A program made the position numbers and the translations under genes. Positions 11,051-20,178 of a stretch of DNA of 64,000 nucleotides are shown piece after piece (the first letter of the stretch is position 1; each line of letters starts with the position of its first letter). Source of the stretch: Minutocellus sp. GHC0000111 (taxonomy: Eukaryota). A model generated the notes under the pieces. The model was given only the letters and a program-made list of their open reading frames with translations. It searched no databases and was not told where the DNA came from. Location: contig OZ361260.1 in the NCBI GenBank assembly GCA_977018835.1, positions 4,092,001 through 4,156,000 of the forward strand. Direction: 5' to 3'.

Positions 11051-11409
11051 CTGACTGACTTTTTTTCTTCCTCGTCGGTGAGTGAGGTGTTAATGCCCCC
11101 CCCCAAAATTACTCAATGAATGAATCCAACGGCTTGGCGATAGCAGGGTGAAGCAATGCACACCCACTGAGAAGGCTTCACGCTCTCCAAGCCAACGATC
11201 AGCAAGACCCTGCCGCGGATCCCTTGCCTCGAGCCACCTCAAACCGAATACAGTCATCTGCAGAGCCTCATCGTCAGCACGGACGCGGTCGGTCGGTGCG
11301 GTCATGGGCATTCGTCGGCGGATGGACGGCCAGACGAATTTTATCTCTATGAGGTATGAGGTAGGAATTCCTAAGCATGAACTGCAAAGCATCAACAAGC
11401 ACATGGACG

Positions 11410-13386
11410 ATGGGTATAAGACGCAGACATCAATTGCTAGCGCTGATTGGCGTCGGTGCTGTTTTCTTCGCCGCCCGAGATGTTTCGGCGTTCACGGTGG
11501 CTCACAAATGCTCGCATCCGAGCAAGACCCCGTTCTCATTCTTAATGACGAACGAGAACAATGCCGAGGAAGCCGAAAGCACATCTGAGAGAACCGATAG
11601 TAATGCATCCACGCAAAGTGACGCAAGCGAAAAGAAGAAAAGGAAGCGCGTCGTCGTCATTGGTGGTGGGTGGGCCGGCTTCTCGGCGGCCGATGCCCTG
11701 GCGACGGCCCCTTCGGATAGTGTGGACATTGTCCTCCTGGATGCATCTCCAAGAGGCGCCGGTGGCTTGGCGGGGAGCTGGAAGACCCAAGGGGGGCGGC
11801 CGGTGGAGGCTGGAGTGCATGGTTTTTGGCGTGAATACAAAAATACCTTTGCCGCAATTGAACGTATCGGACTAGATTTGGACGATGTGCTCGGCCCCTA
11901 CTCACCCAGTGTTTTGGTATCCAAGAGTGGCAAAGTTGCTCTGGCACCGGTTCTTGGTGATGGGCAGTCTACTCTTGCTGAAACGGTCAACAAAGACAAA
12001 CAAATGGCGAATCCCTTCTCTTTGCCACTGGAAAGATTGGCAGAACTGTTGCCACCCCCGCTTGACGTTGCCTTGGTGAGCGAGTTCAATCCATCTTCAC
12101 CCCTCACACTTGTCGATCGAGCAAGTGCGATTGGATTGTTGGGTGCATGGGCTGACTTTGGTCAAGAAGACGAGGCATCGTGGGACATTTACAACAAAGT
12201 ATCGGCCGAGGAGCTGTTTCTAGAGAAAGCTGGAGTTACCAAAGGTCTCTACGATGAGCTGGTGCAACCATTGTTGCATGTGCTGCCCATGTGTCCTGGA
12301 TATGACTGTTCTGCCGCCGCGGCATTATCGTGCTTTCACGTCTTTGCCTTACAATCCAAGGGCGCGTTCGATGTTCGATGGTGCCGAGGAGGGATAACTG
12401 AGAAAATATTTGATCCATGGGCGGAGAAATTTTTAGCACATGGCAACATTGATATCCGTGGAAGTTCTAGAGTTTCCTCAGTAACGCAGACATCGGATGA
12501 TCAATATCGGGTAACGTTGAGCAATGGCCAAGACGAAATCGATTGCGATGGTGTGATTTTTGCGGTGGGAGGAGTTTCCATGGGTAAGATTGTAGCATCA
12601 TCACCGGAGACAAATGAATTGCTCGGGCCGCAGGGATTCGAGAAATCAAGAGGCGTAACATGCGTGGCCGTGCGCTTATTCCTAAAACCTGATACGACAA
12701 CGACAGATTTGCTCGGAGGGAAACACAGCTCCACTCAACTTCCACCTGACATGGCCCGAGCGATGAAGGACACGCCTGTCGTTGTGTGTGGGCCCAAGAT
12801 AGGCGGAATGCCGGAGTTGAAAGAAGCAGGGTTTTGTATTTACGATCTACAACGGATGCAGGATCAATTTGCCATTGGCATTGGCTCGCAAGATGCTGCC
12901 GTTATCGAAGTGGACTTCTTTCGAGCCGATGAGATAGCAGACATAGCAGACGATGATAAGATCGCCGCTCCGACATTGAAAGCGATATCCATAGCCCTGA
13001 ATACAAATGAAATCGACCCTTCGTGCATCATCGATAAAAGTGTTGTGAGAGCAAAAGATGCCGTCTCGCACTTTGCTCCGAACGCGCCTTTACCTGATGT
13101 GAAAATCCGAAATGGGATCAGCATGGCCGGCGACTGGATCGATCGGGCTGGGCATGCAAGCTGGTCCACAGAGAAGAGCGTTGTTACTGGAAGACAAGCC
13201 GCAGCGTCAATAGCGAGGGATCTTGGACTCGTTTGCGAAACAGATATCATCCCTGCAGCGCCAGACACACCACAACTTTCGGCTCTGCGAAGAGTGGCTA
13301 CCAAACTTAGAGCGACAATTCCGCCGTCGGGGTCAGGCATTCCGCCATCTCCGTGGGCATTTGCAAAAGATCTATTTGCAAAATAG
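11410..13386 (+). CDS. Plastid-targeted flavin amine oxidase / carotenoid desaturase-like oxidoreductase
   Basis: Signal peptide ending VSA-F; Rossmann motif RVVVIGGGWAG; GGLAGSW, EAGVHGFW, AGDW and WSTEKSVVTG. Confidence 0.8.
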   Translation: MGIRRRHQLLALIGVGAVFFAARDVSAFTVAHKCSHPSKTPFSFLMTNENNAEEAESTSERTDSNASTQSDASEKKKRKRVVVIGGGWAGFSAADALATAPSDSVDIVLLDASPRGAGGLAGSWKTQGGRPVEAGVHGFWREYKNTFAAIERIGLDLDDVLGPYSPSVLVSKSGKVALAPVLGDGQSTLAETVNKDKQMANPFSLPLERLAELLPPPLDVALVSEFNPSSPLTLVDRASAIGLLGAWADFGQEDEASWDIYNKVSAEELFLEKAGVTKGLYDELVQPLLHVLPMCPGYDCSAAAALSCFHVFALQSKGAFDVRWCRGGITEKIFDPWAEKFLAHGNIDIRGSSRVSSVTQTSDDQYRVTLSNGQDEIDCDGVIFAVGGVSMGKIVASSPETNELLGPQGFEKSRGVTCVAVRLFLKPDTTTTDLLGGKHSSTQLPPDMARAMKDTPVVVCGPKIGGMPELKEAGFCIYDLQRMQDQFAIGIGSQDAAVIEVDFFRADEIADIADDDKIAAPTLKAISIALNTNEIDPSCIIDKSVVRAKDAVSHFAPNAPLPDVKIRNGISMAGDWIDRAGHASWSTEKSVVTGRQAAASIARDLGLVCETDIIPAAPDTPQLSALRRVATKLRATIPPSGSGIPPSPWAFAKDLFAK

Positions 13387-13447: not shown

Positions 13448-15697
13448 CTAGCAGAGCAAATCAACTGCGTAGACCTTGCCTGTGTCAACCAAACCTCCTA
13501 CCAAGAGGCCCGGAGCATTGTAAAAGGACGCAACCAAAGCTATGGTACCATAAACATCAATATCGCTGCCAAACCCCGCCTTTTCGCCACCATCGGGGGC
13601 GGCAATCTTCGATGTTTGTTGCCATGAAGACGTGGAGAGATCGAGTGAAAAGGAATACACAGCACCACTATTCTCTCCTTGGTCGTCAACTCCGATAGCT
13701 CCGACCACAATTGTCTCTCGAAATATTGCTACTGATGCGCCAAAGCGATCAGACGTGAGCCCATCATCGGGCATCAACTTTGCGCTCTCAACCCATTGAC
13801 CTGTGCCATCGATCCCGTAGACGTAAACAGAAACAGAGGAGTATCCCATATCGTCATCGCCTATGGCGCCGACCGCAATAGTTCCATGTTGAGTTATGCT
13901 GACGCTTCTCGCAAATGAGTCTCCCTCGGAAGCATCGTGTGGAATAAGTTTCATCCGCTCGAGCCAAGTGCCGTCAAGCTGCCTGCTGAAGACGTAGGCA
14001 GCACCACTATGCCGACGGGGGGCACCAACCACCAAATACTCTTCATCCAAGTCAAGAGAATATCCAAAGTCATCTCGATCTTGAGCATCAGACGGCCGGA
14101 TCTTTGCAACCTTGGTCCACGTCGCATCATTTTGCCTTTCGTAGATATAGATGAAACCAGAACGGTCCCCTTGTTCTTGAAAATCCCCCGACGGCTCGCC
14201 AACAACCAAGAAGCTATCATCGATTGCTAAAGAATTTGCAAATGAGACCTCTGGTATGCTGATCCCATCATCTCCGACCAATGTGACTTCCTGTGTCCAT
14301 CGATTACCGTCAGTCCGAACAAAGACATGGACACACCCGGCGGGAAACATTTGATAGCCTACTTCTACCATACAGTTGCCTCCTACAGCGATGATGTCGC
14401 CATCAATGTCAATCGACTTGCCAAACGAATCACCAAGATATGATTCCAAAGGGAAGAGCTGGGTTATTTGCACCCAATCCTCATCGCCACTGCGCTCGTA
14501 GACGAATGCTGCTCCACGGCAACTATCACATCCCGTTGCCCCCACGACAGCGTTGTTTCTACTTATTGCAATGCTTGATCCAAATTCATCGTCCGGTTCG
14601 TCTAATCGTTGCTTCGGTAGCTCACTAATATTACTTTCGCAAATAGGTTCAGGTTCAGTCGGAGATGGTACTGGTGGACTGGTTTGATTACTTTGAGAGT
14701 GTGGCTTATCAGTGGGGGGAGGAGGTGCCGGGGAAGGAGATGGCTTGGACGAGGTTGACACACCAATGGCAGTACCAACAATAGCAACAGTAAGGACAGC
14801 AAATGCAACGACAATACCAACGAAGACATGCTTTCTCATCCCGCAGACGAGATCTCTGCCGTCACTTGTATTTTTCTTGCCGTTGTGTAGTTGTTGTGGC
14901 GGCGCGTGCTCTTCTTCCTCCAGTGGTTGTAAACCAGTGGCGCCACTAGACGAGGACAGGGGATGGCCACTCTCCAGAGATATCCAGCGCTGCTCTTCTT
15001 CGGTCAGCCCCAACGAGTCCAACGTTGGACCGTCCTCGTCGTCGTCATTACTGGGAGAGTGAGAGGTCGATTGGATGAAAAATGCCCCAACTCGCTCGTC
15101 TCGGGCAGAAGTATCTGTCTTTGACGACATGACTACTATCGCTGGGATGCGTCGAGCACCTATGCGCACGGGGCTGGATCTGGCGGCACTCCCAGCAAAA
15201 TCCAATATCTCTTGGACCTGACTTGGCCGATGGTGGCGATTCTGCTGCTGGTTCTGTTGGCGCTGTTGGTGCTGATCTTGCTGGTGATGCTCCTCGCCTC
15301 TGCAATGATCACCAGGTGGATCAACAGAATCATTTATGGACTCCTCAAGGGCACAACTTCCCTCAGCGATTTTATCACGCAGTCGCTCCTCTGGTGGGCG
15401 GCTGGGCGTGACAGATGCTGTGTGTGTATCCTCCAAAGAATGCTGGGTACAGCTGCTGTTGGGGTTGAGGTCCAACAAGTTGCTCGTCTCGCTTTTTGCG
15501 CCACCACTTATGGATGTCAATCCACCACCATCTCTCGGACTTGTCGTGCGGGTCGAACCGTTCAGGACGGCACATGTGGCCAGATAGTGTGGATCATTGT
15601 TCTCCTCTGTCACCTCGATTGGCTCCGGAGGGCGGGCGTACTCCTCATCAATCTTGGTCTGGATTTTGGCCTGCAGATCTTGAGCTGGCGATGGCAT
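13448..15697 (-). CDS. Type II membrane protein with extracellular FG-GAP repeat beta-propeller
   Basis: Single hydrophobic segment, Pro-rich stalk, and ~7 repeats of FG.S..I.....VVGA......GA.YV. Confidence 0.85.
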   Translation of the reverse strand: MPSPAQDLQAKIQTKIDEEYARPPEPIEVTEENNDPHYLATCAVLNGSTRTTSPRDGGGLTSISGGAKSETSNLLDLNPNSSCTQHSLEDTHTASVTPSRPPEERLRDKIAEGSCALEESINDSVDPPGDHCRGEEHHQQDQHQQRQQNQQQNRHHRPSQVQEILDFAGSAARSSPVRIGARRIPAIVVMSSKTDTSARDERVGAFFIQSTSHSPSNDDDEDGPTLDSLGLTEEEQRWISLESGHPLSSSSGATGLQPLEEEEHAPPQQLHNGKKNTSDGRDLVCGMRKHVFVGIVVAFAVLTVAIVGTAIGVSTSSKPSPSPAPPPPTDKPHSQSNQTSPPVPSPTEPEPICESNISELPKQRLDEPDDEFGSSIAISRNNAVVGATGCDSCRGAAFVYERSGDEDWVQITQLFPLESYLGDSFGKSIDIDGDIIAVGGNCMVEVGYQMFPAGCVHVFVRTDGNRWTQEVTLVGDDGISIPEVSFANSLAIDDSFLVVGEPSGDFQEQGDRSGFIYIYERQNDATWTKVAKIRPSDAQDRDDFGYSLDLDEEYLVVGAPRRHSGAAYVFSRQLDGTWLERMKLIPHDASEGDSFARSVSITQHGTIAVGAIGDDDMGYSSVSVYVYGIDGTGQWVESAKLMPDDGLTSDRFGASVAIFRETIVVGAIGVDDQGENSGAVYSFSLDLSTSSWQQTSKIAAPDGGEKAGFGSDIDVYGTIALVASFYNAPGLLVGGLVDTGKVYAVDLLC

Positions 15698-16354
15698 GAT
15701 GGAATAAATGCCCTAGCTAGTTCAAGCGGGCGTTTGCAATGAAGGATCCATGCACAAATTGTGTGTCGTACAGCAATGTTTGGCGGCTACAATGGATTTG
15801 TCTGCTTATGTTGAGCAAAGATACGATCTTTTCAGAGCGAACTGACGGCTACCGCGCTTGGTAATGCTTTACGCATTGATTAGTAATTTATTCTGAACTG
15901 TGATGGCAGGAATGCTGATAGAATGGCAAGCAACGAAGAAGGCTGTTCGGCTCTTTTTAGTCGCCGATTCTGCTATGCCCGATGCGAAGCATCAGCCACG
16001 GCAAGAGCATCAGTCAGCGAAGATATGCGGCGGCGCGGGGTTTCAGATTGCTATGGCACTGAATGTTTGTTGAGTTTTCAAGAAAGGTCGAAATGATATC
16101 AAGAAGAACCTCATAAAGAGAACTCTCCTCAACACATGCTCTTGTGCCGCAGGAAAATGAGGTACCTGCAGCTGCTGCTGCTGTGCCGCGCCGCGCGCGC
16201 TGCTGCCCCATGCCTTCTGCACTGCTTTCGAACTTCTCTTGCAATCTTTTCTGACGCGCGCGCTTCCAGCCAGAGCCAAGCGAAGCAATAGACCAATATC
16301 TGAGTTCAAGCCCGGTAGCGAAATCACCCTCAAGTAATCACTCCCGCCATCACC

Positions 16355-17435
16355 ATGTCATCTCCAAACAGCATCACGGTCGGCGTGTCCGGCATGACGT
16401 GCGGCTCTTGCGTCAGCACCGTCACCAAGGCCCTCGAGAACCTCGGACTGGACGTCCAGGCCACCGTCAGCCTGGCTTCGGGTACCGCCCACGTCACCGG
16501 CCCTGCGTCGGTGACCTATGATGCCGTCACGGAGGCAATTGAGGCATGCGGATTCACCGCCGGCCCATGTGGCAGCGCTGGCGGTGCCTCCGGCGGAAAA
16601 TGCAGCGCCGGTGGTAAATGTAAGTTGAGACACATCGTTGAGAAAGATACTTTTTCACCGGAACGTTCTTTTGGGGTTCTCATCCGCCCCTCACATTCCC
16701 AAGCTAATCATAATTCAATTCTCCTTGAAATATTTCCCCCCCTGATAACTACTGTCCAACAGGCACCTGCGGCGACAATTGCCAGTGCGGCGATACCTGC
16801 CGCTGTGCCGACTGTCCCGGCACCTGCGGCAAAGCTGCTGACGGTGCCTCTTGTCCCGCCAAGGCCAAGGGAACTTGTACGTGTGGCGAGGTCTGCTCGT
16901 GTGGACCCAATTGTACCTGCACTGGATGCCCCGGTAACAAATCCTTTGAGGACCAGGCTGGCAGATGCAGTGCTGGTGGAAAGTGTAAGTATGCTGCTGG
17001 AGAGGGAGCTTTGCGAATGAATGGTTTTGGTTGGCCAGAGTTATGGATCCTATGCTATGCCAGTTAGTTGGCCGAGACACGTGATCATGCTAACAATCTT
17101 TTGTCGTGGTCCTTCACTTTTAACGTACATTCGGATCTAATGAACTATCTTTTATTCGATCCATCACCACAGGCAACTGCGGAGACAATTGTAAGTGTGG
17201 AGCGACGTGCAATTGCGCCGATTGTCCCGGAACGTGTGGCAGCTCTACCGGTCCCTGCCCCGCCAAGGCCAAGGGAACGTGCACTTGTGGTGCGGCCTGT
17301 AGCTGTGGTGACAATTGCACTTGTGGAGGCTGCCCTGGTCAGCAGGGAGGCTTGTTCAGCAAGAACAATATCCTGGCCCTCGCCGTCGTTGGCGCAGCAG
17401 TTGCGGCCGGTATCTTCCTGAGTAGGCGCAAATAA
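16355..17435 (+). CDS. HMA domain + tandem metallothionein-like modules + C-terminal TM anchor; exons 16355-16619, 16763-16984, 17173-17435 (249 aa)
   Basis: GMTCGSC metal-binding motif. Two phase-1 GTAAGT...CAG introns each rebuild a TGC codon. Four CxCxxxCxCxxxCxCxxC clusters; ends ILALAVVGAAVAAGIFLSRRK*. Confidence 0.85.
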
Positions 17436-17672
17436 GTGAAAGATGGGGCGACGTATACGATGCTACTCTCTGTCTGTAGAGAGTTACCATCGAGTTCTCA
17501 GCATTACCTTCTAGAAGTACCATGCATAAACGTTACTAATGCCAAAGACATTATAAGTTTGTATCTATCGTACTTTAGTATACCATAAATTGAGCAGCGG
17601 TCACTGCTGCTTCTAGAGGAAGATTCAGGGAGCAATCCTATTTTTTTTTCTTTCTTTTTCTTCGATCGAACG

Positions 17673-19741
17673 TTAGCGTCTGCCCTTGAACATTTCTTCA
17701 GCGAGTAAGTTAAGCATACGTATGAATTCCTCACAAGGAAGTGTCCCTTCGATAATTGTACCACTCGGTTTGTCGTAGGAGATGCATGGGGTGGATTCGC
17801 CTTGGCCCAGGCCGGGAAAGGATTTTGAATATTTTAATGGTGTAGGGGCCGTATCATCAAAAATTTGAAGTGTGAAAGGGTCCGGAAACATTTCTTTTTT
17901 CACATTGTATTGATTAACCCAAACTGTGTAGGCTCCATTTGTCCCGGTGGATGGAATATTGATGTTCTCAGTCCATGTGCCAAACTCTGGCACACGATCC
18001 ACGCCAGGACGAAAGTCCACGTCAAGGGATCCACCGGTCTCGGGATCGAACTTGTTGTTGTAGTATATGGTGTTATTTCCCGGTGTCAAGACGAGAAGGT
18101 CAAGGTCGTCTATAAATATCAAAGGAGAGGCAAGGGTGCAATAAATACTATGAGCACATTGGGTGAATGAAGATGGGCAGCCATGCAACGATAATACTCA
18201 CCACCGCCTGTCCATGTCAGTGTGAACCTAGGGTTGCCAGTTGCCGCACAAGTGCCGGAATTGCAAATTGAGCCTGCTGGACAATCGCCATCAAATTCGC
18301 ACTCTGTCCTCTTGGTAGAAGGAAGATAATTGAAGTTGAACACATCGGCTTCCGTTACATTCTCAAAGAGAGTTGCATTCTGTTCTCGGAAGAGTTTGGC
18401 AAGATCTACTGGGCACTCCAGATCGTTCCTGCCTCTACCTCGCTGTTGAGTCCGAAGCGAACGGGGAACGGGCTCTTCGTCTGTGTTGGCATCGGAATTA
18501 TCATTGATTCCAAGAAGTTTCCGATTGTTTTTATCTCTTCTGCGGCATTTACGGCATTGTCCACGGCCGCGGGCTCGTCCGCGGCTGCGCCTGGGTCGAA
18601 TTTTTCTCAACCGACGCTCATCGTCGAGGTCCCCTTGAATGTCATCATTAATGTCAGTACCTCGGATAAGTCCAGGGCGGGAATCATCAACTTCGTTTTC
18701 GTCCTCTTCCTCCCACAGCATACGAGTAGTTGGGAGGGTGCTGGTACCATTGGCTGTGCCGCAAGTTTCGTTCGAGTTGATGAACTCGAGGATGTCGATG
18801 TCGAAATAGATTTCGTCGGTGCATCCAATCACTCCTGCCTCTGCGTCAGCACATTCGGCGTCTTCATTGAGAAATCTCAGAAGCACAGCCTGAAATTCTG
18901 CCTCGACATTTTCATCAAGGGGAATGTTCTCGGCGCAAAAGGTAGCTAAATCAAAATCGAATTCAAAGTCAAAAAGATCATAGAGCTCGTCGCCACAGTT
19001 GGTGCAGGTCTGTTCCCAGTAGCATTTGTCCACGTTGTAAAAAACGTCGCCGGTGACACTCGTTCCTTCTTTCTTGACAAGGATCTCGAAGAGAGCATTG
19101 TTGTCGTAAGGGTCTTCGGTTTGGCCCTTTTTGAACTTGGTGACGGCAATACCTTCTTCTCCATAGTCGACGTACTGCCCTGTATAGGATAGTTCCACCA
19201 TCTTGAGGATGGACGGCTTGCCGAGGTTCTCTCCATCATCGCCATCGGTATCGTCGCAGCTGAGCTCTCCAACATACTGATGCGTTTTCTCATTGTAGAA
19301 GAAGAGATACGGGCGCTCTTGGGAGTAAAACTGCCCTCCGTCGGTGCCGTGATCCTCGCCGATGCAGACATGCGTCACATCGCTGCAAAACTGCCACGAG
19401 ATCTCGTTGGACGGCGTATACAGAGTAACGTTGCTGTCGACGATTCCAAAGGTCCACTGACCGGGGCCGAAGGAACCTAGCTGTTCGTCTCGGCAGATGC
19501 CCTCCCCGTCTCGGAAGCAACGGTACGCGCCTCCGTCGCCGGTCTTCATGCTGGTACCGCCGCACTGGACGCCAACAGAGTTGAGCTGGGGGAGCCAGTA
19601 TTGATCGGTGTTGACGGCATCGGCCTCTGAGAGGTCGCGCTCATCATTACTCATGTCGGGCCGAGAGGCAGTGACGGTGGCAATCTGGGCAACGGCGATA
19701 CCCAGAACGATTGCTCTGAGGCTTGGGGTGGAGAATTTCAT
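17673..19741 (-). CDS. Secreted acidic Cys-rich protein with C-terminal YfaP-like domain; exons 19741-18202 and 18109-17673
   Basis: Signal peptide MKFSTPSLRAIVLGIAVAQIATVTA. GTGAGT...TAG splicing gives GNPRFTLTWTGG-DDLDLLVLTP...GGSLDVD...ENI. Internal polybasic segment. Confidence 0.75.
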
Positions 19742-20178
19742 GACTGGCTGGCCAGCAATGCAAATCGGTGATGTGGCCGTGGAGAGAAAGTAGGAAATGG
19801 GCGTTGAGGATGCGGTCCTCCGTGAAAGATGCACTTTTTCAACCGAAGGCGACTGAAGAGGTGCACAAAAGGCAATAAATGAATTGCAGACAAGGGCCGT
19901 TGAATCTGTTGCTGGCTGTGTGTGCGAATTCTCATTGGATTCATTTGGCGAGCATTTCGCTCTCTGTGCGAACCACATGCCGAAGCGAACCCAAAGGTTC
20001 ACACCATCAGCATGCTGTGCTGTACTCGTACATCCTTTCCCTTATCCTTATCCTTATCTGGTACTCTAATTAATCGACCCGACCAGTGGGACGACTGGGA
20101 TCCGATAACTCCTAGTGCTGTACATGTGCATGTCTACAGGCAGTACCTAAGTACCAGTTGATCAACTAGATCTAGATC

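What the first reader, a model, noticed from the sequence alone, without database searches (positions are those of the whole stretch)
16355..17435. Tail-anchored HMA-metallothionein fusion hidden by introns
Seen: splicing yields 249 aa with ~38 Cys: an MTCxxC HMA domain, two exon-encoded duplicated modules (each two CxCxxxCxCxxxCxCxxC clusters linked by CPAKAKGT), then a hydrophobic helix and SRRK*. The ORF track misses the Cys-rich frame entirely. Established: HMA domains hand off Cu and other soft metals, metallothioneins are normally small and soluble, and a short TM with a basic end is typical of tail anchors. Inference: a membrane-tethered metal chaperone and sink whose capacity grew by exon duplication, possibly tunable by skipping the symmetric 222-nt exon 2.
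Basis: partly seen in the sequence, partly recalled or inferred. Interest (0 to 1): 0.75.

Follow-up and report, generated by a model that had tools for sequence, protein, structure and literature searches.

The report
Membrane-tethered metal chaperone–metallothionein of algae
An expressed, spliced algal gene joins a copper-chaperone-type domain to four cysteine-rich repeats and a greasy C-terminal tail, so it likely works as a membrane-tethered metal sponge; similar fusions occur in many marine algae and were probably already predicted, though apparently never tested.

Summary
Three exons (16355-16619, 16763-16984, 17173-17435) splice to 249 aa with 38 Cys. RNA contigs show intron 1 removed in 5 of 8 runs, intron 2 in 7 of 8, and three contigs span all exons. 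The protein has an HMA domain (Pfam 3e-12), four Cys clusters and an 18-residue hydrophobic tail ending RRK. It belongs to an algal family (Arcocellulus, Ditylum, Aureococcus, many environmental sequences) with 1-5 clusters; 28 of 31 selected members keep the hydrophobic tail, against 1 of 56 control HMA proteins. The repeat unit has 9 Cys (37 of 43 units), as in a metallothionein beta-domain. Corrections: no exon-2 skipping joint in 8 of 8 runs; exon 2 is a chimera left by a tandem duplication across an intron. Intron-1 sequence appears in contigs of 5 of 8 runs. Best reading: the HMA domain takes up Cu(I) or another soft metal and loads thiolate clusters on the cytosolic face of an organelle. 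Binding, metal and location are untested. The HMA-plus-cluster fusion was probably predicted by Balzano and Sardo 2022 (recalled; paper not held). I found no report of the tail anchor.

The parts
16259..16354 (+). 5' untranslated region (approximate; RNA contigs begin at 16259-16283 in 7 of 8 runs)
   Evidence: contig ends only; contigs cannot fix a start site
16355..16619 (+). Exon 1 coding part: HMA domain, Gly-rich linker and the two leading Cys of repeat unit 1
   Evidence: joint in 5 of 8 RNA runs
16379..16555 (+). HMA domain (Pfam PF00403, aa 9-67); MTCGSC at 16394-16411; acidic (1 K/R, 5 D/E in aa 1-70); Gly-Phe rather than Lys near its end
   Evidence: E=3.3e-12; beta-alpha-beta-beta-alpha-beta fold in the model of homologue P0001
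16620..16762 (+). Intron 1 (143 nt, GT..AG, phase 1); its sequence is present in RNA contigs of 5 of 8 runs; a 6-nt shorter form occurs in 3 runs
16763..16984 (+). Exon 2 (222 nt, symmetric): clusters 1 and 2, a linker, and a copy of exon 1's 3' end
   Evidence: both flanking joints on one contig in X1, X4, X5
16985..17172 (+). Intron 2 (188 nt, GT..AG, phase 1); weak residual likeness to intron 1
   Evidence: local score 56.5 against 39.4 +/- 5.1, reached by 2 of 1000 shuffles; global test not significant, 88 of 1000
17173..17435 (+). Exon 3 coding part: clusters 3 and 4, spacer, hydrophobic tail, stop
16568..17333 (+). Metallothionein-like region (aa 72-216, 35 Cys in 145 aa, 24%): four units of 9, 9, 8 and 9 Cys
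17370..17435 (+). Predicted tail anchor: 18-aa hydrophobic stretch (aa 229-246, mean hydropathy 2.5), then RRK and stop
17436..17547 (+). 3' untranslated region (approximate; RNA contigs end at 17525-17547 in 6 of 8 runs)

Best explanation
This spliced, expressed algal gene encodes an HMA domain, four cysteine-rich repeats and a hydrophobic C-terminal tail, and it likely acts as a membrane-tethered metal buffer in which the HMA site is predicted to catch Cu(I) or another soft metal and pass it to metallothionein-like clusters. Shown: gene structure, transcription, the HMA domain, the repeats and the conserved tail. Inferred: (1) the tail inserts after translation into an organelle membrane and leaves everything else in the cytosol; (2) the acidic HMA domain, closer in type to Cu-ATPase N-terminal domains and CopZ than to Lys-bearing Atx1, accepts metal from a soluble chaperone or a nearby transporter; (3) each 9-Cys unit folds as one thiolate cluster like a metallothionein beta-domain, giving roughly 11-12 divalent ions or more Cu(I) per chain; (4) capacity differs between lineages by tandem gain and loss of units in the DNA, not by exon skipping. 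Which organelle is open.
For: Splice joints and full-length contigs. HMA match; confident HMA fold in homologue P0001, pLDDT 87-94 over aa 11-70, matching CopZ and Cu-ATPase domains at TM about 0.8 of the target. Both HMA Cys nearly invariant and seven cluster Cys plus two leading Cys invariant in 17 aligned homologues. 37 of 43 repeat units in 17 proteins hold exactly 9 Cys. Whole protein 15.3% Cys, 2% aromatic, 249 aa, inside the metallothionein definition in PMC7216689. Hydrophobic tail in 28 of 31 selected members, net tail charge 0 to +3, against 1 of 56 short HMA hits without clusters. Among metagenome loci picked by the Cys pattern alone, 9 of 10 HMA-type loci carry the tail. Precedent for a chaperone with a Cys-rich buffer domain: S. 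pombe Pccs (PMC8003315, passages).
Against: No metal-binding, induction or localisation data. The clusters match no metallothionein Pfam family at its cut-off: none for exons 2 and 3, Metallothio_2 only E=0.0098 in P0002. The model gives pLDDT under 50 for most of the clusters and the whole tail, with only a 5-residue helix there; it was made for homologue P0001, not the window's protein. All search profiles included the tail, so 28 of 31 is biased upward, and several members are close kin. Ditylum P0009 and locus L008 lack the tail. Tail properties are ambiguous for the target membrane (hydropathy 2.5 suggests ER, charge +3 suggests mitochondria or peroxisomes, by yeast and mammalian rules in PMC5450235). 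Cu preference rests only on the HMA type.
Confidence: 0.62

Rival explanations
1. It is mainly a Zn/Cd store or supply depot, for example for carbonic anhydrases, and the HMA domain unloads the clusters instead of loading them.
For: A 9-Cys unit fits three divalent ions (established for metallothionein beta-domains; unit size). The clusters match the plant metallothionein Pfam family weakly. The family is common in marine metagenomes, one cluster having 179 members. Diatoms use Cd in carbonic anhydrase (PMC7216689).
Against: The best sequence and fold matches of the HMA domain are mostly copper proteins, although Zn-ATPase and MerP domains also match. There is one His in the whole protein, in the HMA domain.
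Confidence: 0.2
2. It is a membrane-bound feeder for a metal transporter such as a P1B-type ATPase, like a detached N-terminal metal-binding domain; the clusters serve as a sensor or short-term reservoir, not as a detoxifying sink.
For: HMA type resembles Cu-ATPase N-terminal domains. A membrane tether is more easily explained by a membrane partner than by bulk buffering. Members with a single cluster exist.
Against: No transporter gene among the neighbours tested. Repeated expansion to 4-5 clusters points to selection for capacity.
Confidence: 0.13
3. The Cys repeats are structural (disulfide, Zn-finger-like or Fe-S) or a redox buffer, not an exchangeable metal store.
For: No metallothionein family match at cut-off; no usable Atlas hit for the cluster region. 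Similar CxCxxxCxC runs hang on unrelated bacterial proteins among the loci.
Against: No signal peptide precedes the HMA domain, which starts at about residue 6, so a cytosolic, reducing location is expected. Gly/Cys-rich, aromatic-poor composition and fusion to an HMA domain fit a metallothionein.
Confidence: 0.05

Closest known systems
Putative metallothioneins of heterokonts and dinoflagellates (Balzano and Sardo 2022, Biol Lett 18:20220039)
   Same: From my recall of the abstract (paper not held): an N-terminal metal-binding domain plus one to three CTCGxxCxCGxxCxCxxC patterns, which is this architecture. Only its citation and a one-sentence summary were seen (PMC9504759, passages). An Aureococcus record, XP_009037419, is in the family.
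   Different: This member has four clusters. Whether that paper noted the hydrophobic tail, the 9-Cys unit or the cluster inserted in the HMA domain could not be checked. As recalled, it had no experiments.
Classical metallothioneins (plant family 15, PF01439; animal beta-domain)
   Same: At most 300 aa, 15-35% Cys, under 10% aromatic (definition in PMC7216689, section text; values); CxCxxxCxCxxxCxC spacing as in plant type 1 (recalled); 9 Cys per unit as in the beta-domain (recalled).
   Different: Folded HMA domain in front; hydrophobic tail, whereas that review calls metallothioneins cytosolic; no Pfam metallothionein match at cut-off.
HMA-domain proteins (PF00403): CopZ/Atx1 chaperones and N-terminal domains of P1B Cu-ATPases
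   Same: MxCxxC motif and fold.
   Different: No ATPase; carries 35 further Cys and a membrane tail; lacks the loop-5 Lys of Atx1/Atox1 (feature recalled; sequence).
Schizosaccharomyces pombe Pccs
   Same: Copper chaperone with an extra domain that buffers excess Cu (PMC8003315, passages).
   Different: Pccs is a cytosolic SOD1 chaperone; there is no SOD-like domain here, and Pccs has no membrane tail in that account.
Plant HIPPs (heavy-metal-associated isoprenylated proteins)
   Same: HMA domain held at a membrane by its C-terminus (recalled; a HIPP appears as a weak hit).
   Different: HIPPs use a prenylated CaaX end and have no metallothionein repeats; this protein ends in a hydrophobic stretch and RRK.

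Membership tests
HMA domain (PF00403) | Profile match above the curated cut-off | tested here: met
   47 bits against cut-off 24.8, E=3.3e-12
HMA domain (PF00403) | MxCxxC motif and beta-alpha-beta-beta-alpha-beta fold | tested here: met
   MTCGSC; fold shown on homologue P0001, 76% identical in this domain
Atx1/Atox1 chaperones | Stand-alone domain of about 70 aa with a conserved loop-5 Lys and basic face (recalled) | tested here: not met
   Fused protein; Gly-Phe at that place; 1 K/R against 5 D/E
Metallothioneins (compositional definition) | At most 300 aa, 15-35% Cys, under 10% aromatic residues | tested here: met
   249 aa, 15.3% Cys (24% in aa 72-216), 2% aromatic; definition from PMC7216689
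Metallothioneins (compositional definition) | Soluble, cytosolic protein | tested here: inconclusive
   A conserved hydrophobic tail argues against solubility; location not measured
Metallothioneins (compositional definition) | Metal-thiolate clusters with high stoichiometry; metal induction | not testable with these tools
   No binding or treatment data available
Curated Pfam metallothionein families (PF01439, PF00131, PF02067, PF02068) | Profile match above cut-off | tested here: not met
   No match for exons 2 and 3; P0002 17.2 bits against 23
Tail-anchored proteins | Single hydrophobic segment at the very C-terminus, short tail, no N-terminal signal | tested here: met
   aa 229-246 mean hydropathy 2.5, 3-residue tail, HMA begins at about aa 6; hydropathy only, no topology predictor run
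Tail-anchored proteins | Post-translational membrane insertion with cytosolic N-terminus | not testable with these tools
   The model has pLDDT under 50 in the tail
Balzano and Sardo 2022 putative protist metallothioneins | N-terminal metal-binding domain plus CTCGxxCxCGxxCxCxxC patterns (recalled from the abstract) | tested here: met
   HMA plus four clusters, three starting CTCG and one CNCG. The definition is from memory; the paper is not held
Balzano and Sardo 2022 putative protist metallothioneins | Homology to the sequences listed in that paper | not testable with these tools
   Paper and supplement not held
Plant HIPPs | C-terminal CaaX prenylation motif | tested here: not met
   Ends in SRRK

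The most novel reading that the evidence does not exclude
This is a natural membrane-anchored metallothionein with its own loading domain, widespread in diatoms, pelagophytes and other marine algae, that builds a metal reservoir on one organelle's surface; each lineage sets capacity by the number of 9-Cys units, and retention of the intron right after the HMA domain may switch the gene to an unanchored, cluster-free chaperone.
Probability: 0.3. Interest if true: 0.72.

Novelty: new variant of a known kind. Interest (0 to 1): 0.52.

Why it matters
Metallothioneins are described as cytosolic and are barely known in the algae that carry much of marine primary production (PMC7216689). A tethered version with a built-in chaperone domain would put metal buffering at a specific membrane and give a testable gene for Cu, Zn and Cd handling in phytoplankton. 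The 9-Cys unit in 1-5 copies is a natural series for testing how capacity scales. Databases mislabel or miss the family ('phosphoprotein phosphatase', 'copper chaperone CopZ'), and gene callers read through intron 1 (P0014), so correct models are useful in themselves.

Tried and rejected
Exon-2 skipping: no joint in 8 of 8 RNA runs; contigs lose rare forms, so it is unsupported, not excluded. The short Arcocellulus protein is not the skipped form: its single module is 93% identical to our module 1 (exon 2) and 77% to module 2; loss of a module or assembly collapse explains it better. The 233-aa stop-to-stop ORF 16319-17020 (P0014) is read-through of intron 1 into another frame; relatives' read-through stops within a few to about 30 codons, so that frame is not conserved. 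No own genome is held, so paralogues and partner ATPases were not checked. The profile search of 1.84 billion representatives was swamped by multi-HMA proteins and added two members, P0170 and P0221. Atlas: first hit 0.86, a 153-aa HMA cluster, lead only; nothing for the cluster region. The HMA tree has 1 starred branch of 18 and does not order events. The global intron 1/intron 2 comparison was not significant (88 of 1000). The sigma-70 scan is irrelevant for a eukaryote and found nothing. Earlier findings: nothing in 3 of 3 look-ups. Ten paper searches gave no account of a membrane-anchored HMA-metallothionein; one search asked for it directly (0 papers). PMC8779346 and PMC13284251 (passages) do not treat this family.

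Full report
Observation. Splicing at 16619/16763 and 16984/17173 gives 249 aa with 38 Cys, an MTCGSC motif, four CxCxxxCxCxxxCxCxxC clusters and a hydrophobic end followed by RRK. Both introns are GT..AG, phase 1 and lower in GC than the exons. Public RNA runs hold the locus. Of 8 runs laid (6 samples, 2 studies), 5 show the first joint, 7 the second, and three single contigs of 931-957 nt span all exons. The intergenic flanks next to the gene have no cover in the four runs, and only a short shallow piece in one of the four runs, which argues against bulk DNA in these libraries. The gene model is therefore real and transcribed.

Context. The neighbours are a flavin amine-oxidase-type gene and an FG-GAP repeat gene upstream and genes without a clear Pfam match downstream; none is a metal gene. 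The closest named relative is the diatom Arcocellulus cornucervis (76% in the HMA domain), so the window is likely from a related diatom (inference). No whole genome is held.

Family. Three protein searches, one profile search and one metagenome scan gave a family of HMA plus Cys clusters plus tail. Named members are Arcocellulus (2 clusters), Ditylum brightwellii (2, no tail in the record) and Aureococcus anophagefferens (3), besides MMETSP transcripts without a shown species and many environmental sequences; one cluster has 179 members. I selected 31 full-length-looking, non-identical proteins, the window's included. I left out near-identical cluster mates and frameshifted or partial gene calls (P0011, P0021, P0028-P0030, P0037, P0041, P0045, P0061, P0290, P0295). 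Of the 31, 28 have an 18-residue stretch of mean hydropathy at least 1.4 within 15 residues of the end (median 1.9, tail charge 0 to +3), one more falls just short (1.26), and two have no tail; 27 have a small-aromatic-x-x-small motif there. The same rule passes 1 of 56 short HMA hits without clusters. The search profiles contained the tail, which biases the count upward. Among loci picked by the Cys pattern alone, 9 of 10 HMA-type loci also have it, though these fall into fewer independent groups and were confirmed against a tailed protein.

Repeat unit. Counting the two Cys in front of each cluster, 37 of 43 units in 17 proteins have exactly 9 Cys; the window's protein has 9, 9, 8, 9. Nine Cys is the ligand count of a metallothionein beta-domain (established knowledge), so one cluster per unit and about 11-12 divalent ions per chain is my inference. 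In 19 of 31 members, not the window's, a further Cys group sits inside the HMA domain.

How the gene grew. The last 30 or so nucleotides of exon 2 copy the end of exon 1, splice donor included, and the introns keep weak local likeness (2 of 1000 shuffles; global test 88 of 1000). A tandem duplication of 'end of exon 1, intron, module' explains this, and exon 2 is a chimera. Differences between the copies are mostly synonymous (14 synonymous against 5 changed codons, and 13 against 4), which fits purifying selection. Module 1 is 93% identical to the single Arcocellulus module and 77% to module 2, and fragment P0028 from another relative has the same linker followed by an apparent intron. So the duplication looks older than the split from Arcocellulus, whose short form would be a loss or an assembly collapse. 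The trees are too weak to prove the order.

Isoforms. No exon-2 skipping joint was seen in 8 of 8 runs. Intron-1 sequence lies in contigs of 5 of 8 runs (X2, X3, X6, X7, X8) and intron-2 sequence in 2 of 8. Retaining intron 1 would give a 292-aa protein with the HMA domain, no clusters and a different C-terminus; retaining intron 2 would give 189 aa with two clusters and no tail. Ten or so relatives' gene fragments break off at the same place after the HMA domain and stop soon after, so the intron position looks conserved but the long alternative frame does not. Contigs cannot separate regulated retention from unspliced precursor, so this is a lead only.

Structure. A model of homologue P0001 (17-row alignment) is confident only for the HMA domain (pLDDT 87-94, aa 11-70) and under 50 for most of the clusters and the tail, as expected without metals, but it gives no support for the tail helix. 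The domain matches CopZ-type chaperones and Cu-ATPase N-terminal domains. It is acidic and has Gly-Phe where Atx1-type chaperones have Lys (the Atx1 feature is recalled), which suits an acceptor.

Mechanism. Most likely (0.62) the protein is inserted by its tail with the rest in the cytosol, takes Cu(I) or another soft metal at the CxxC site and stores it in thiolate clusters next to the membrane. The target membrane is open: by yeast and mammalian rules (PMC5450235, passages) hydropathy 2.5 points to the ER route and charge +3 to mitochondria or peroxisomes; my hydropathy is a best-window value and runs high. Rivals are a Zn/Cd store (0.2), a feeder for a transporter (0.13) and structural or redox Cys (0.05).

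Comparison with what is known. It meets the HMA definition and the compositional definition of a metallothionein (PMC7216689, one section part and passages) but matches no curated metallothionein family. It works like S. pombe Pccs, a chaperone with a buffer domain (PMC8003315, passages), and resembles plant HIPPs in tethering an HMA domain (recalled), without belonging to either. PMC9504759 (passages) cites a 2022 survey predicting novel metallothioneins mostly in diatoms and dinoflagellates. [quoted passage not shown] The paper and its supplement are not held, so whether it noted the tail is unknown and bears directly on novelty. Ten searches of the held library (listings and abstract starts only, except the papers named here) showed no membrane-anchored HMA-metallothionein.

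Verdict. A real, expressed member of a probably already predicted but untested algal family. The conserved tail anchor and the 9-Cys unit are the parts that may be unreported. New variant of a known kind; interest 0.52.

Noticed in passing
P0010, P0023, P0025, P0036, P0067 and others (19 of 31 family members): A group of 5-8 Cys is inserted inside the HMA domain between the third strand and second helix, so the chaperone fold itself carries a metallothionein-like loop.
   Followed up: partly
window 16620-16762: Intron 1 sequence appears in RNA contigs of 5 of 8 runs, at depth similar to the spliced joint in X2 and X3; a 6-nt in-frame shorter form near 16643 occurs in X6, X7, X8.
   Followed up: partly
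L009:2683-3585: N-terminal hydrophobic stretch, several CxCG-type Cys clusters, then a phosphatase-like domain (BLH_phosphatase E=6e-4, below cut-off): another membrane-linked metallothionein-like fusion.
   Followed up: partly
L008:12-1154: HMA domain followed by eight His-containing Cys repeats, no tail; matches plant PEC metallothionein above cut-off.
   Followed up: partly
L001:1094-1927: Intronless member with five near-identical 36-aa, 9-Cys units and a tail.
   Followed up: partly
L012, L013, L020-L022, L025 (also L016, L019, L027, L028): Bacterial-looking proteins resembling GrpE by eye (and other enzymes or regulators) carry acidic CxCxxxCxC runs at one end or internally; identities not tested by a family search.
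   Followed up: no
P0103-P0106, P0030: Aureococcus members are labelled 'phosphoprotein phosphatase' in NCBI, likely because some gene models fuse them to the upstream phosphatase.
   Followed up: partly
P0282 and P0284: Near-identical proteins with two against one cluster, so unit number varies even among close relatives, or assemblies collapse repeats.
   Followed up: no
window 18110-18201 (- strand): A 92-nt intron in the downstream minus-strand gene is spliced in run X7, joining ORF 18119-20041 to ORF 17673-18197.
   Followed up: no
window 11365-13386 (+) and 13448-15712 (-): Neighbours: a flavin amine-oxidase-family gene with an N-terminal targeting-like leader, and a membrane protein with seven FG-GAP repeats.
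   Followed up: partly
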